This document shows positions 36,251 to 38,319 of a DNA stretch of 64,000 bases, one piece after another. Position 1 is the first letter of the stretch. Every line of letters starts with the position of its first letter. The DNA is taken from assembly GCA_030690305.1 (NCBI GenBank), contig JAUYHB010000006.1, positions 5,668 to 69,667 on the forward strand, in the 5' to 3' direction. The stretch comes from a bacterium. Lineage in GTDB: Bacteria; Patescibacteriota; Minisyncoccia; Phycocordibacterales; JAGLPS01. Under the pieces are notes generated by a model that was not told where the DNA came from, ran no database searches, and was given only the letters and a program-made list of their open reading frames with translations. Both the position numbers and the translations under genes were made by a program.

Positions 36251-37168
36251 CTATTTCTTCTGCTGTGGATGCTTTTGCAAGAGTATGTTAATCGCTTTTG
36301 TGACCAATGGCAAGATGTCGTTGTAAAAATTGAGTGTGATAATGTCGCTCAGTTTAAACCACTTTACGTCATCAAGGCCCCCCTCTTTCATAAGTTTTAC
36401 ATCGTCAAAAGGAGACGACGCAAGAAAATATACGACTTGTTTTTTTATTTTACCCTTTTCCGGGTCAAAGGTCGTGTATGAATTTTCACCCAATTTTTCT
36501 TCCGGAGAGATGGTAAGGCCGATTTCCTCTTTGATAACGCGTACAACACCCTCCTCTTCCGATTCTTTCTCGTTGAGGTGACCTTTGGAGAGGGTCCAGT
36601 ACCCGAATACGTCATGCACAAGCGCGAGGTAAATTTGTTTCTTTTCAACGGCATAGACAATGGCACCCGCGAGCCGTTCCACCGGCAATTGGCTGTCAGG
36701 CACATCGGGTGAAAACTTTTTACGTTTGGAAATCTCGTCTTTCCCCGGTTCCCCCATTTCTTTGTACACGGCGCCAAGTACCCCGTTTATAAATTTTCCG
36801 CTCGTTTCTCCTCCAAACGTTTTCGCCAGTTCAATCGCTTCGTTAATGGCGACTTTGGGTGGCACTTCTTTTCTGTCCGAGAAAAGCAATTCCGAAAGTC
36901 CGATGCGTAAAATATTCCGGTCGATGATTGAGATACGGTCAATCGGCCAGTCGGGAGCGGCTTTCTCGATAATGCGGTCAAGGTCCTTTGACTTCTTGAT
37001 AACCGTGTCCAGGAGTCCCTCCATAAACGAAAAATCTCCCATGCCGGGAGCAAATTCCTCTACATTCCTCTTAAGGATTTCTTTGACCTCACTGCTATTT
37101 TTGGACGCAAAATCCCACTCGAATAGGGTTTGCATCACAATTGATCGTGAAAGGTGCCGATTAGCCAT
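36251..37168 (-). CDS. nusB: NusB transcription antitermination factor fused to a C-terminal NUDIX hydrolase domain.
   Basis: The N-terminal roughly 145 aa are NusB-like (LFEWDF...GKFINGVLGAV). The C-terminus carries a Nudix box, GHLNEKESEEEGVVRVIKEEIGL (G-x5-E-x7-REUxEExGU). Confidence 0.75.
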   Translation of the reverse strand: MANRHLSRSIVMQTLFEWDFASKNSSEVKEILKRNVEEFAPGMGDFSFMEGLLDTVIKKSKDLDRIIEKAAPDWPIDRISIIDRNILRIGLSELLFSDRKEVPPKVAINEAIELAKTFGGETSGKFINGVLGAVYKEMGEPGKDEISKRKKFSPDVPDSQLPVERLAGAIVYAVEKKQIYLALVHDVFGYWTLSKGHLNEKESEEEGVVRVIKEEIGLTISPEEKLGENSYTTFDPEKGKIKKQVVYFLASSPFDDVKLMKEGGLDDVKWFKLSDIITLNFYNDILPLVTKAINILLQKHPQQKK

Positions 37169-37272
37169 ATTTTACAACGTGCATATGTAACTTCTCATCC
37201 TCAATCTTATCAAAAAACAAAACCTGCTACAAACTTCTTTTATTGCCTGGCACAACGAGAGGGTTCCGCCTC

Positions 37273-37500
37273 TTATTTCTTCTCCGTTTCTTTTTTCTCT
37301 TCGGTCTTTTTAAGTTTTTTGGCCTTTTTTTCTATAGCCGCGGACACGTTAACAATTTTCCTGCCGCGGTATTCTCCACAATTTTTACATACGGTGTGGC
37401 GTGATACGGGAGATTTGCAATTCGGGCATATAGACAAAGCCTCCGCCTTAAGGGCGTGGTGAGAACGGCGGTTCGCCGTGTGGGATCTCGTGTGTCGCAT
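37273..37500 (-). CDS. rpmF: 50S ribosomal protein L32 with a Lys/Glu-rich C-terminal tail.
   Basis: It has RRSHHALK...ICPNCKSPVSRHTVCKNCGEYRGRKI, the L32 zinc-ribbon pattern. Confidence 0.8.
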   Translation of the reverse strand: MRHTRSHTANRRSHHALKAEALSICPNCKSPVSRHTVCKNCGEYRGRKIVNVSAAIEKKAKKLKKTEEKKETEKK

Positions 37501-37551
37501 TCGTACAACCATATCTGGGCAAGTATAAAACATTTTAAAGAAAAAGCAAGA

Positions 37552-37583
37552 AAAAACCCGCAACATTGCGTTGCGGGTTTTTG
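37552..37583 (-). terminator. Intrinsic terminator (bidirectional geometry).
   Basis: The hairpin is cccgcaac-attgc-gttgcggg, flanked by A-runs and T-runs. Confidence 0.65.
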
Positions 37584-37599
37584 AAAAACTTAAGGAAGA

Positions 37600-38319
37600 T
37601 TATCCGTTGCAGCATGCCTGCATACCAAAGAATCCTCTGAACGTTTTCACAAAAGGAATGTTCTTGTGAGAACGAACCATCGTGAGACGATCAAAAGAAA
37701 GGAACTTCCGGTAAGAAGGCTTTAATCTTTGGATGATTGGAAGTGACAAGGTGAGAAACGCCTTATGCGTAGGAAAAAGATTTTCCATCGCGAAACACAG
37801 CGGTACCCACTCAGGCGCTTTCCATTCTTCCTTCCGCACCTTCCCCCCGACTGATTCGGTGAAGGTTCGCATTTCCTTTCTCAAAAACAATTCTCTGCCT
37901 GTAGCGTCAACGAAAAAAATCTTCTGCGAGTAACCAAACATTGTACCAATGTCTTGAAGCTGCTCGCATTCGTTCGGTTTAAGCGTGACGCCAATTTTTT
38001 CTCTGCATGCGCGACACAGGGTTGATACGGGTTCCTCACCCGACAATTGCCTGCTTCCCGGAAGACGAAACATCCACTTCCCTGACCCCCTTCTTGCCGA
38101 ATACGCAAGAATGTAGGGTATCTCGTTCACTTCTTTGCTAATGATGCCCAGAGCATAATGTTCGCTTCTGTAGCCCACTATCTTTCGAATTGAAGAGCGA
38201 TACGGAAAAAGTGAACTGCGTTTTTCCATAGATATCACCATCCTTTTTGTTTTTCGGTTGTAAAGAACTTTACACTGACAAACTGGGCAAACAATAACAA
38301 AAATTGGGTAGTTTGTCAA
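37600..38319 (-). CDS. Hypothetical protein, possibly a degenerate NUDIX-like fold.
   Basis: It is an ORF with N-terminal CPVCQC and a Nudix-box-like segment GSRQLSGEEPVSTLCRACREKIGV. The true start is uncertain. Confidence 0.35.
   Translation of the reverse strand: MTNYPIFVIVCPVCQCKVLYNRKTKRMVISMEKRSSLFPYRSSIRKIVGYRSEHYALGIISKEVNEIPYILAYSARRGSGKWMFRLPGSRQLSGEEPVSTLCRACREKIGVTLKPNECEQLQDIGTMFGYSQKIFFVDATGRELFLRKEMRTFTESVGGKVRKEEWKAPEWVPLCFAMENLFPTHKAFLTLSLPIIQRLKPSYRKFLSFDRLTMVRSHKNIPFVKTFRGFFGMQACCNG

What the first reader, a model, noticed from the sequence alone, without database searches (positions are those of the whole stretch)
36251..38319. NusB-NUDIX fusion protein, with a second possible NUDIX-like ORF two genes upstream.
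The ORF 36251..37168 encodes a complete NusB-like helical domain followed in-frame by a canonical Nudix box (GHLNEKESEEEGVVRVIKEEIGL). This couples an rRNA antitermination factor to a nucleoside-diphosphate-X hydrolase, and possibly to RNA 5'-end decapping or NAD-cap removal. The ORF 37600..38319, upstream of rpmF, has a degenerate Nudix-box-like stretch as well.
Basis: seen in the sequence. Interest (0 to 1): 0.5.

Follow-up and report, generated by a model that had tools for sequence, protein, structure and literature searches.

The report
NusB fused to a degenerate Nudix domain
This ultra-small (Patescibacteria) bacterium makes its rRNA transcription factor NusB as one protein with an Ap4A-hydrolase-like Nudix domain; the fusion is conserved in hundreds of related species, but its catalytic residues drift, so the domain probably binds a nucleotide or an RNA 5' end more than it cuts one.

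Summary
Window 36251..37168 (minus strand) is one uninterrupted 305-aa ORF. It has a full NusB domain (Pfam E=1e-33; TIGR01951 above its cut-off), a flexible linker of about 24 aa, and a Nudix domain (PF00293, E=4e-10).

It is not an assembly artefact. The same architecture sits in one ORF in 79 of 80 species-representative Patescibacteria genomes (at least 590 matched). The gene order is always rnhB-rpmF-nusB::nudix-rnc-smc.

The Nudix domain is closest to Ap4A/Ap6A hydrolases such as NUDT2, by both sequence and fold.

The box is not fully canonical. The Glu of "RE" (box position 16) is Val here. That is the residue whose E58A change inactivates human NUDT2. Across the fused family, positions 16 and 19 are no better conserved than an average column. 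Position 16 changed at least 27 times among 79 species. Yet the domain as a whole (62% mean identity) and its putative ligand-contacting Lys/Tyr/Trp residues are strongly conserved. The nearest stand-alone relatives keep all three glutamates in 23 of 24 cases.

My best reading is a genuine NusB carrying a mostly non-catalytic, or weakly catalytic, nucleotide- or 5'-end-binding Nudix module.

The second ORF (37600..38229) is a degenerate member of a sporadic family of stand-alone Nudix genes found at the same position in related genomes.

I found no paper describing the fusion.

The parts
36251..37168 (-). nusB::nudix gene, 305 aa plus TAG stop
   Evidence: Single ORF. Pfam NusB and NUDIX hits. 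Identical to the deposited protein P0001, annotated only as 'transcription antitermination factor NusB'.
36755..37168 (-). NusB domain (aa 1-138), seven helices
   Evidence: PF01029 E=1.2e-33. TIGR01951 scores 127 bits against a cut-off of 88. AF2 pLDDT is mostly above 85. Foldseek matches Aquifex NusB in the NusB-NusE-BoxA complex 3r2c with target-normalised TM 0.90 and rmsd 1.5 A. Many invariant residues, including KVAINEAIELAK and F126/N128/G129.
36683..36754 (-). Linker (aa 139-162); its N-terminal motif is GEPGKD
   Evidence: AF2 pLDDT is below 50 for aa 141-153 and pTM is 0.49, so there is no fixed domain orientation. Linker length and sequence vary between lineages. E137/G139/E140/P141/G142/K143 are invariant among close relatives and kept in about half of the diverse clusters.
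36269..36682 (-). Nudix-fold domain (aa 163-300), Ap4A/Ap6A-hydrolase-like
   Evidence: PF00293 E=3.8e-10. Best PDB sequence matches are C. elegans Ap4A hydrolase 1kt9 (9e-8), Chlamydia CT771 and T. thermophilus Ndx1. Best fold matches are Aquifex Ap4A hydrolase 3i7u (target-normalised TM 0.86) and Ndx1 (0.82). Mean pairwise identity is 62% over 79 species.
36515..36583 (-). Nudix box GHLNEKESEEEGVVRVIKEEIGL (aa 196-218)
   Evidence: Translation verified. It fits the consensus except at position 16.
36536..36538 (-). Codon for V211, which is box position 16 (canonically the Glu of 'RE')
   Evidence: It is equivalent to NUDT2 E58. In fused homologues this position is E in only 28/120, 11/49 and 28/79 of three samples.
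35553..36245 (-). rnc (RNase III); its ATG lies 5 nt after the nusB::nudix stop
   Evidence: TIGR02191 E=1.5e-75. The spacer 'aacaa' was read directly. rnc sits immediately downstream of the fusion in all 79 loci that have the fusion.
37273..37500 (-). rpmF (ribosomal protein L32). The mechanical ORF runs up to 37566, but homology begins at the ATG at 37500.
   Evidence: PF01783 E=5.7e-15 at aa 24-73 of the long ORF. TIGR01031. Conserved directly upstream of the fusion.
37600..38229 (-). ORF2: a 209-aa degenerate stand-alone Nudix-like protein. The mechanical ORF extends to 38319.
   Evidence: Only two proteins match in 5.8e9 sequences: itself and P0122 at 58% identity. P0122 passes Pfam NUDIX at 21.9 bits against a cut-off of 21.1. 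The gene at the same position in L006 is a NUDIX (31.8 bits) and aligns over the full length. The family occurs at the same position in about 10 of 80 loci.
39232..39816 (-). rnhB (RNase HII), upstream boundary of the conserved gene block
   Evidence: PF01351 E=4.1e-32. Conserved order rnhB-rpmF-fusion-rnc-smc.
32720..35179 (-). smc, downstream end of the conserved block
   Evidence: ORF translation with Walker A and SMC features. phmmer finds the homologue downstream of rnc in most loci.

Best explanation
The gene encodes this bacterium's NusB, the partner of S10/NusE that binds BoxA RNA in rRNA antitermination and processing complexes. NusB is extended by a flexible linker and a C-terminal Nudix domain of the Ap4A/Ap6A-hydrolase (NUDT2/RppH-like) type. 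The fusion is an old, fixed trait of the Paceibacteria branch of the Patescibacteria. It is expressed from a conserved block, rnhB-rpmF-nusB::nudix-rnc-smc, where its stop codon lies 5 nt before the RNase III start codon. The Nudix domain is under strong purifying selection as a fold. It keeps residues that align with the phosphate-binding Lys and base-stacking Tyr of Ap4A hydrolases. The metal-binding and catalytic glutamates of the Nudix box, however, are no longer constrained, and the copy in this window has Val at the 'RE' glutamate. I infer that the domain works mainly as a tethered binding module. Its ligand would be a nucleoside polyphosphate or dinucleoside polyphosphate, or the 5'-(poly)phosphate or capped end of nascent RNA held near NusB. 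Hydrolysis would be weak or absent in most members, this one included, and perhaps retained in the minority with an intact RE..EE. Shown: the architecture, conservation, synteny, fold, subfamily affinity and relaxation of the catalytic positions. Inferred: ligand binding, loss of activity, and any effect on antitermination or rRNA processing.
For: Architecture. Fixation: the best 120 homologues are nearly all two-domain proteins of about 300 aa from Patescibacteria. At least 590 GTDB species genomes match, and 79 of the best 80 have both domains in one ORF with conserved neighbours. Subfamily: the best sequence and fold matches are Ap4A/Ap6A hydrolases and MutT1/Rv2985 diadenosine polyphosphatase. 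Relaxed catalytic site: position 16 is E in 28/120, 11/49 and 28/79 of three samples. Position 19 is E or D in only 32/49 diverse clusters. All three glutamates are intact in only 8/49 and 25/79. In conservation rank, positions 16 and 19 come 77th and 69th of 141 columns, while W191, K195, Y247, W270, Y282, D186, T192 and Y231 head the list. Position 16 changed at least 27 times on a tree of 79 species. The domain still averages 62% identity, against 68% for NusB. The 24 nearest non-fused relatives keep E16/E19/E20 in 23 cases. Position 16 is NUDT2 E58, and E58A abolishes PPP-RNA dephosphorylation (PMC8616924). Precedent for ligand-binding, non-hydrolytic Nudix domains that lack a box glutamate: TRPM2 NUDT9H (PMC4974056). 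Non-enzymatic Nudix classes are recognised in the clan review (PMC5389931). The Nudix sensor domains of the regulators NrtR and AraR are among the fold matches. In the alignment to C. elegans Ap4A hydrolase, K195 aligns with K36 and Y282 with Y121. The roles of those two residues are from my memory of the 1KTG structure paper.
Against: No biochemical data exist for any member. Box position 20 (E215) is invariant among close relatives. R210 and E202 are mostly kept, and a GGLDD loop could supply alternative carboxylates, so residual or alternative catalysis cannot be excluded. About a third of members keep a fully canonical RE..EE and could be active enzymes, which would make 'hydrolase' the ancestral and possibly still relevant function. 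The ligand is unknown. I could not test whether the fusion is the only NusB in the genome; only +-6 kb around each locus was seen. The AF2 model gives no information on how the domains interact (pTM 0.49).
Confidence: 0.55

Rival explanations
1. The domain is an active RNA 5'-end pyrophosphohydrolase or decapping enzyme (RppH/NUDT2-like), or an Ap4A hydrolase, delivered to nascent rRNA and BoxA-containing transcripts by NusB. The position-16 substitutions would be tolerated because other carboxylates (E202, E214, E215, D266/D267) carry out catalysis.
For: The domain belongs to the Ap4A-hydrolase/RppH-like branch. [quoted passage not shown] E215 is invariant, and E202 and R210 are at least 90% conserved among close relatives. 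25 of 79 species keep the full RE..EE. The gene is tightly linked to rnc, an rRNA-processing nuclease.
Against: Position 16 is Val here, and its equivalent E58A kills NUDT2. Positions 16 and 19 evolve like unconstrained sites in the fused family but are kept in 23 of 24 stand-alone relatives. Some members have Lys, Leu, Tyr or Thr at position 19, or Lys at position 20. The domain is acidic (median pI 5.15), unlike a protein with an extended RNA-binding surface; this last point is weak evidence.
Confidence: 0.27
2. The Nudix fold has been recruited purely as a protein-protein or scaffold module of the antitermination and rRNA-maturation complex, with no nucleotide ligand. It would be comparable to the enzyme-fold protein SuhB serving structurally with the Nus factors.
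For: The catalytic residues are relaxed while the fold stays highly conserved. Family-specific invariant residues lie outside the classical box: D186, Y231, Y247, W270, L279-Y282. There is a conserved GEPGKD linker motif. SuhB's association with the Nus factors is documented (PMC4807359, listed).
Against: The best-conserved residues include those that align with the phosphate-binding Lys (K195) and base-stacking Tyr (Y282) of Ap4A hydrolases, and the invariant box Glu E215. That pattern fits a retained ligand pocket. No partner has been identified, and no interface is predicted.
Confidence: 0.13
3. The fusion is functionally neutral. Two neighbouring genes were joined in a streamlined genome, each domain acts independently, and the link to NusB has no mechanistic meaning.
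For: Patescibacteria genomes are compact. Stand-alone Nudix genes occur sporadically in the same neighbourhood. The linker is flexible and variable.
Against: The fusion is retained in 79 of 80 species-level genomes with no clear split version. The catalytic site is relaxed only in the fused lineage. Part of the linker is invariant among close relatives. An independent housekeeping hydrolase would be expected to keep its catalytic glutamates.
Confidence: 0.05

Closest known systems
NusB (TIGR01951 / PF01029), e.g. E. coli and Aquifex aeolicus NusB in the NusB-NusE-BoxA complex (PDB 3R2C)
   Same: The N-terminal 138 aa form a full-length, high-scoring NusB with the same all-helical fold (rmsd about 1.5 A). 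They carry the conserved KVAINEAIELAK...KF.NGVL segment.
   Different: It carries an extra linker plus Nudix domain of about 165 aa. It also sits in a different operon context, rpmF-nusB-rnc-smc.
Ap4A/Ap6A-type Nudix hydrolases: human NUDT2, C. elegans Ap4A hydrolase (1KT9/1KTG), Aquifex aq_158 (3I7U), T. thermophilus Ndx1 (1VC8), Chlamydia CT771; and, more distantly, RppH
   Same: These are the best sequence and fold matches. They share the W-T-x-x-K-G-H lead-in to the box, and the Lys and Tyr that align with substrate-contacting residues.
   Different: The box 'RE' glutamate (NUDT2 E58) is Val here and is unconstrained in the fused family. The domain is fused to NusB. The fused family has its own invariant residues: D186, Y231, Y247 and the L279-N-F-Y282 motif.
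Non-catalytic Nudix sensor domains: TRPM2 NUDT9H, and the transcription regulators NrtR (3GZ8) and Bacteroides AraR (5BS6)
   Same: These are Nudix folds that have lost box glutamates yet bind a nucleotide or sugar ligand to control another module. NrtR and AraR appear among the fold matches. The TRPM2 precedent is in PMC4974056.
   Different: The partner module here is an RNA-binding antitermination factor rather than a DNA-binding domain or an ion channel. The loss of catalytic residues is patchy across species rather than fixed.
RsmB/Sun 16S rRNA m5C967 methyltransferase
   Same: It is the one well-known case of a NusB-like RNA-binding domain fused to an enzyme domain acting on rRNA. The window's N-domain gives weak hits to RsmB models.
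   Different: In RsmB the NusB-like domain is divergent and the partner is a SAM methyltransferase. Here the NusB domain is an equivalog-level NusB and the partner is a Nudix fold.
SuhB in the rrn antitermination complex
   Same: It is an enzyme-fold protein (inositol monophosphatase family) that works with NusB and NusE on BoxA-containing rRNA transcripts (PMC4807359).
   Different: It is a separate polypeptide with a different fold. I tested no homology or functional equivalence here.

Membership tests
NusB (transcription antitermination factor) | Sequence match to the curated family models above their cut-offs | tested here: met
   PF01029 scores 116.8 bits against 23.1. TIGR01951 scores 127.4 bits against 88.35.
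NusB (transcription antitermination factor) | All-helical NusB fold | tested here: met
   The AF2 model has seven helices in aa 3-138. Foldseek to 3r2c/3r2d/4eya NusB chains gives target-normalised TM 0.89-0.90 and rmsd 1.5-1.8 A.
NusB (transcription antitermination factor) | Binds S10/NusE and BoxA RNA, and is the genome's only NusB | not testable with these tools
   There is no rRNA leader in the window, and whole genomes could not be retrieved. No second NusB lies within +-6 kb in 80 loci.
Nudix superfamily (fold) | Match to PF00293 above the gathering score, and an alpha/beta/alpha Nudix fold | tested here: met
   40.3 bits against 21.1. pLDDT is about 90 over aa 163-300. Many Nudix structures match at Foldseek probability 1.00.
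Catalytically competent Nudix hydrolase | Complete Nudix box GX5EX7REUXEEXGU, with the three glutamates of REUXEE | tested here: not met
   The box reads R-V-I-K-E-E, so position 16 is Val. The equivalent NUDT2 E58A mutant is inactive.
Catalytically competent Nudix hydrolase | Catalytic glutamates conserved among orthologues | tested here: not met
   Position 16 is E in 11/49 and 28/79. Position 19 is E in 27/49. Their conservation ranks are 77 and 69 of 141. At least 27 changes at position 16 occurred among 79 species. Stand-alone relatives keep all three glutamates in 23 of 24 cases.
Ap4A/ApnA hydrolase subfamily (NUDT2-like) | Closest relatives by sequence and structure, with Lys and Tyr ligand-contact residues conserved | tested here: met
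   1kt9 at 8.9e-8, plus CT771 and Ndx1. 3i7u at target-normalised TM 0.86. K195 and Y282 align to C. elegans K36 and Y121 and are at least 95% conserved. The roles of K36 and Y121 are recalled from the literature and were not re-checked.
Ap4A/ApnA hydrolase subfamily (NUDT2-like) | Hydrolysis of Ap4A or related substrates | not testable with these tools
   This needs an enzyme assay.
RppH (bacterial RNA pyrophosphohydrolase) | Match to the RppH equivalog models above cut-off | tested here: not met
   NF001936 scores 20.5 bits against a cut-off of 118, and only over aa 175-218.
Nudix superfamily (for ORF2, 37600..38229) | Match to a Nudix model above cut-off, directly or through homologues | tested here: inconclusive
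   ORF2 itself gives only NUDIX_2 at 12.9 bits against 27, and MutT at E=0.006. Its homologue P0122 passes PF00293 at 21.9 bits against 21.1. The L006 gene at the same position scores 31.8 bits and aligns with ORF2. hhalign against the fused-domain profile is not significant. The AF2 model is unusable at pLDDT 38.

The most novel reading that the evidence does not exclude
In Paceibacteria, NusB has acquired a pseudo-enzymatic Nudix sensor. This would make rRNA antitermination and processing directly responsive to a nucleotide signal (Ap4A-like dinucleoside polyphosphates or another alarmone), or to the chemical state of the nascent transcript's 5' end (PPP, NAD or Np4A cap). That would be a ligand-gated Nus factor, which has not been described in any bacterium.
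Probability: 0.25. Interest if true: 0.75.

Novelty: new variant of a known kind. Interest (0 to 1): 0.55.

Why it matters
NusB is a universal bacterial factor, and to my knowledge it has been studied as a small single-domain protein. Here a whole, species-rich branch of the Patescibacteria makes it only as a two-domain protein. That pattern implies a lineage-specific layer in rRNA transcription or maturation, in organisms whose ribosome biogenesis is already unusual and which are hard to culture.

The evolutionary pattern is a clean natural example of an enzyme domain turning into, or towards, a binding module after fusion. The fold and ligand-pocket residues are frozen. The catalytic glutamates drift, but only in the fused lineage.

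It also yields concrete experiments. One is to ask which nucleotide or RNA 5' end the domain binds. Another is to ask whether that binding changes formation of the NusB-S10-BoxA complex or hand-over to RNase III.

On the practical side, database annotation ('transcription antitermination factor NusB') hides the second domain. Conversely, an automatic label of 'Nudix hydrolase' or 'decapping' would over-call activity.

Tried and rejected
1. Frameshift or assembly artefact: rejected. The identical protein is deposited, and 79 of 80 species have both domains in one ORF.

2. Canonical active Nudix box: rejected for this copy (V211) and for the family as a whole.

3. RppH membership: only sub-threshold partial hits.

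4. Structured RNA near the gene: the Rfam gathering-threshold scan of the whole window found only one tRNA at 53634..53706.

5. ORF2 by structure prediction: the AF2 model had pLDDT 38 and was useless. hhalign of ORF2 against the fused-domain profile was not significant. The N-terminal CxxC 'YcaR-like' hit lies upstream of the deposited start and was disregarded.

6. Taxonomy of the most distant fused clusters: the cluster look-up returned no organism names.

7. AFDB fold search for fused relatives in named organisms: the library was not available.

8. Literature: searches for NusB + Nudix (+ fusion, Patescibacteria or CPR) found nothing relevant. The Nudix-clan review does not mention NusB.

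Full report
**Observation**

Window 36251..37168 holds one uninterrupted minus-strand ORF of 305 aa.
- Pfam finds NusB (PF01029) at aa 7-136, E=1.2e-33, and NUDIX (PF00293) at aa 169-276, E=3.8e-10. Both are well above their gathering scores.
- NCBIfam's NusB equivalog TIGR01951 scores 127 bits against a cut-off of 88.
- The quoted box GHLNEKESEEEGVVRVIKEEIGL is aa 196-218, encoded at 36515..36583(-).
- An AlphaFold2 model built on 52 homologues has mean pLDDT 85.5. It shows a seven-helix domain (aa 3-138), a disordered linker (aa 141-153, pLDDT below 50) and an alpha/beta/alpha domain (aa 163-300). Its pTM of 0.49 means no defined mutual orientation of the two domains.
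- Foldseek matches the N-domain to Aquifex NusB in the NusB-NusE-BoxA complex, with target-normalised TM 0.90 and rmsd 1.5 A. It matches the C-domain to Ap4A/Ap6A hydrolases: 3i7u at target-normalised TM 0.86 and Ndx1 at 0.82. MutT1/Rv2985 and the Nudix sensor domain of NrtR also match.

**The fusion is real and fixed in a clade**

- An identical protein is deposited from a Patescibacteria MAG, named only 'transcription antitermination factor NusB'.
- The 120 best homologues are 65-92% identical, about 290-340 aa long, and virtually all carry both Pfam domains. They come from Paceibacterota, Parcubacteria, Taylor-, Zambryski- and Pacebacteria, and Minisyncoccia.
- I scanned one genome per GTDB species with a Nudix-domain alignment (A3). 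The best 80 are all Patescibacteria MAGs.
- In 79 of those 80 loci, NusB and Nudix lie in the same stop-to-stop ORF.
- The gene order RNase HII - L32 - NusB::Nudix - RNase III - SMC is complete in 54 loci. In the others it is only cut by contig ends.
- In the window, the fusion's TAG stop is followed by 5 nt (aacaa) and then the rnc ATG.
- A full HMMER pass of the Nudix half against 1.84 billion cluster representatives gave 156 hits at E<=1e-10. Of the best 150, 56 carry NusB. Most of the remainder are gene fragments. Genuine stand-alone Nudix proteins of about 140-150 aa appear only at about 30% identity.

**The Nudix box**

The box fits GX5EX7REUXEEXGU at every specified position except position 16, where the Glu of 'RE' is Val (V211).

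To find the equivalent residue in the closest characterised relative, I ran the human NUDT2 sequence against the PDB. The wild-type chain reads ALRETQEE, and the E58A mutant chains (4ick/4ijx) read ALRATQEE. So E58 is box position 16. [quoted passage not shown] Its E58A mutant does not alter the phosphorylation state of pppGpA. The window protein therefore naturally carries a substitution at the residue whose mutation inactivates its closest human relative.

**Family-level test**

| Sample of fused proteins | Position 16 | Position 19 | Position 20 | All three Glu intact |
|---|---|---|---|---|
| 120 close homologues | V 68, E 28, K 11 | E 68, D 39, other 13 | E 120 | 24/120 |
| 49 diverse representatives of 50%-identity clusters | E 11/49 (K 11, V 10, I 8, A 6) | E 27, D 5, other 17 | E 44, K 5 | 8/49 |
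| 79 GTDB species | E 28/79 | E 68, D 9, Q 2 | E 79 | 25/79 |

- I ranked the 141 domain columns by entropy over 39 diverse full-length fusions. Positions 16 and 19 come 77th and 69th. The top ranks go to W191, K195, Y247, W270, Y282, D186, T192, L279, Y231 and E215.
- On a neighbour-joining tree of the 79 species, Fitch parsimony needs at least 27 changes at position 16, at least 12 of them between E and non-E.
- The domain is not decaying. Mean pairwise identity among the 79 species is 62% for the Nudix domain, 68% for NusB and 53% for the linker.
- The 24 nearest non-fused relatives have RE.xEE intact in 23 cases.

Relaxation of the catalytic glutamates is therefore specific to the NusB-fused lineage. 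It coexists with strong constraint on the fold and on residues that, in the alignment to C. elegans Ap4A hydrolase, correspond to K36 (our K195) and Y121 (our Y282). From my memory of the 1KTG work, these are a phosphate-contacting lysine and an adenine-stacking tyrosine.

**Interpretation**

The N-domain has every sequence and fold feature of a working NusB. The C-domain looks like a former Ap(n)A/5'-polyphosphate hydrolase that is kept for something other than hydrolysis. The most economical reading is binding of a nucleotide-polyphosphate ligand or an RNA 5' end.

Precedents exist:
- The TRPM2 NUDT9H domain lacks a conserved box glutamate, binds ADP-ribose and does not hydrolyse it (PMC4974056).
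- The Nudix-clan review lists non-enzymatic classes, including transcriptional regulation (PMC5389931).
- NrtR and AraR, regulators with Nudix sensor domains, are among the fold matches.

Other features bearing on the model:
- The flexible, length-variable linker fits a tethered module.
- The motif Y[KR]E[MLI]GEPGKD at the NusB/linker junction is invariant among close relatives and kept in about half of the diverse clusters. I cannot explain it.
- The domain is acidic, with pI 5.4 here and a median of 5.15. This weakly favours a small ligand or only the very 5' end over an extended RNA surface.
- The fixed pairing with rnc and rpmF puts the protein in an rRNA and ribosome-biogenesis context.

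I give about 0.55 to 'NusB with a mainly non-catalytic binding Nudix module'. I give about 0.27 to 'active 5'-end or Ap(n)A hydrolase targeted by NusB', which is still plausible for the third of species with an intact RE..EE. The remainder goes to a pure scaffold role or a neutral fusion.

**The second ORF**

The mechanical ORF 37600..38319 is deposited as a 209-aa hypothetical protein starting at 38229. Among 5.8 billion proteins it has only one other relative, P0122 at 58% identity, from the closest related contig.
- ORF2 itself gives only sub-threshold Nudix hits: NUDIX_2 at 12.9 bits, and MutT at E=0.006.
- P0122 passes PF00293 at 21.9 bits against a cut-off of 21.1.
- In locus L006 the gene at the same position, between rnhB and rpmF, is a clear NUDIX protein (31.8 bits). 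Its box reads REFEEE, and it matches ORF2 at phmmer E=8e-7 over its whole length.
- Iterated search finds this small Nudix family at the same position in about 10 of 80 loci, mostly with RExxEE.
- ORF2's box, RACREK, keeps one of the three glutamates.
- The rnhB-rpmF interval varies from overlap to 4.3 kb between genomes, so this is a variable insertion spot.
- The AF2 model of ORF2 was unusable at pLDDT 38.

It is not closely related to the fused domain.

**Novelty**

The two-domain architecture is visible in precomputed Pfam annotations, so the sequences are not new. Full-text searches for NusB with Nudix, with or without fusion, Patescibacteria or CPR terms, found no description. The main Nudix survey does not mention NusB.

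I rate it a new variant of a known kind: a clade-wide NusB with an accessory, catalytically degenerate Nudix domain.

**Limits**

There is no biochemistry for any member. The ligand is unknown. I could not verify that the fusion is the only NusB per genome. I could not place the most distant fused clusters taxonomically. The AFDB library was unavailable.

Noticed in passing
window 37600..39231 (between rnhB and rpmF): This interval is a variable insertion spot. Here it holds ORF2 plus two small hydrophobic ORFs with no Pfam match (38409..38723 and 38839..39162, minus strand). In 67 related loci the rnhB-rpmF distance ranges from overlap to 4.3 kb, with a median of about 380 bp.
   Followed up: partly
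L006 4515..5006; also L008, L013, L025, L029, L035, L052, L065, L077, L078 at about 4300-5250: A sporadic family of small stand-alone Nudix genes sits immediately upstream of rpmF in about 10 of 80 Paceibacteria genomes. Some genomes therefore carry Nudix - L32 - NusB::Nudix - RNase III. Most members keep RExxEE; the window's ORF2 does not.
   Followed up: partly
window 36737..36757 (aa 138-144, MGEPGKD, at the NusB/linker junction): The motif Y[KR]E[MLI]GEPGKD is invariant among close relatives and present in about half of the diverse fused clusters, yet AF2 models it as disordered. It may be a docking motif. It is unexplained.
   Followed up: partly
window 23895..25776: A low-GC stretch (37% against about 45% elsewhere) lies next to trmD (25814..26443). 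It encodes a 2H phosphoesterase / 2'-5' RNA ligase family protein (23895..24434, PF13563 E=4e-14) and two ORFs without significant Pfam matches (24467..24994 and 25024..25776). It may be an acquired or accessory island.
   Followed up: partly
window 37273..37566: The mechanical rpmF ORF is 97 aa, but homology to L32 starts at aa 24. The likely start is the ATG at 37500, giving 75 aa. The protein has a Lys/Glu-rich C-terminal tail (KKAKKLKKTEEKKETEKK).
   Followed up: no
window 39694..39870: The long dnaE ORF (plus strand, 39694..43026) overlaps the 5' end of rnhB (minus strand) in its mechanical form. The conserved PHP-domain start (MSSFVHLHTHSHYS) lies about 57 codons downstream. The two genes are probably divergent with a short shared promoter region rather than overlapping.
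   Followed up: no
P0195 (577 aa) and P0225 (379 aa), from the representative search: These are larger proteins in which the same Nudix subfamily follows other N-terminal regions. P0195 has a partial NusB-like segment at aa 332-417 preceded by about 330 unrelated residues. P0225 has a non-NusB N-terminus. Their origin and taxonomy are unknown.
   Followed up: no
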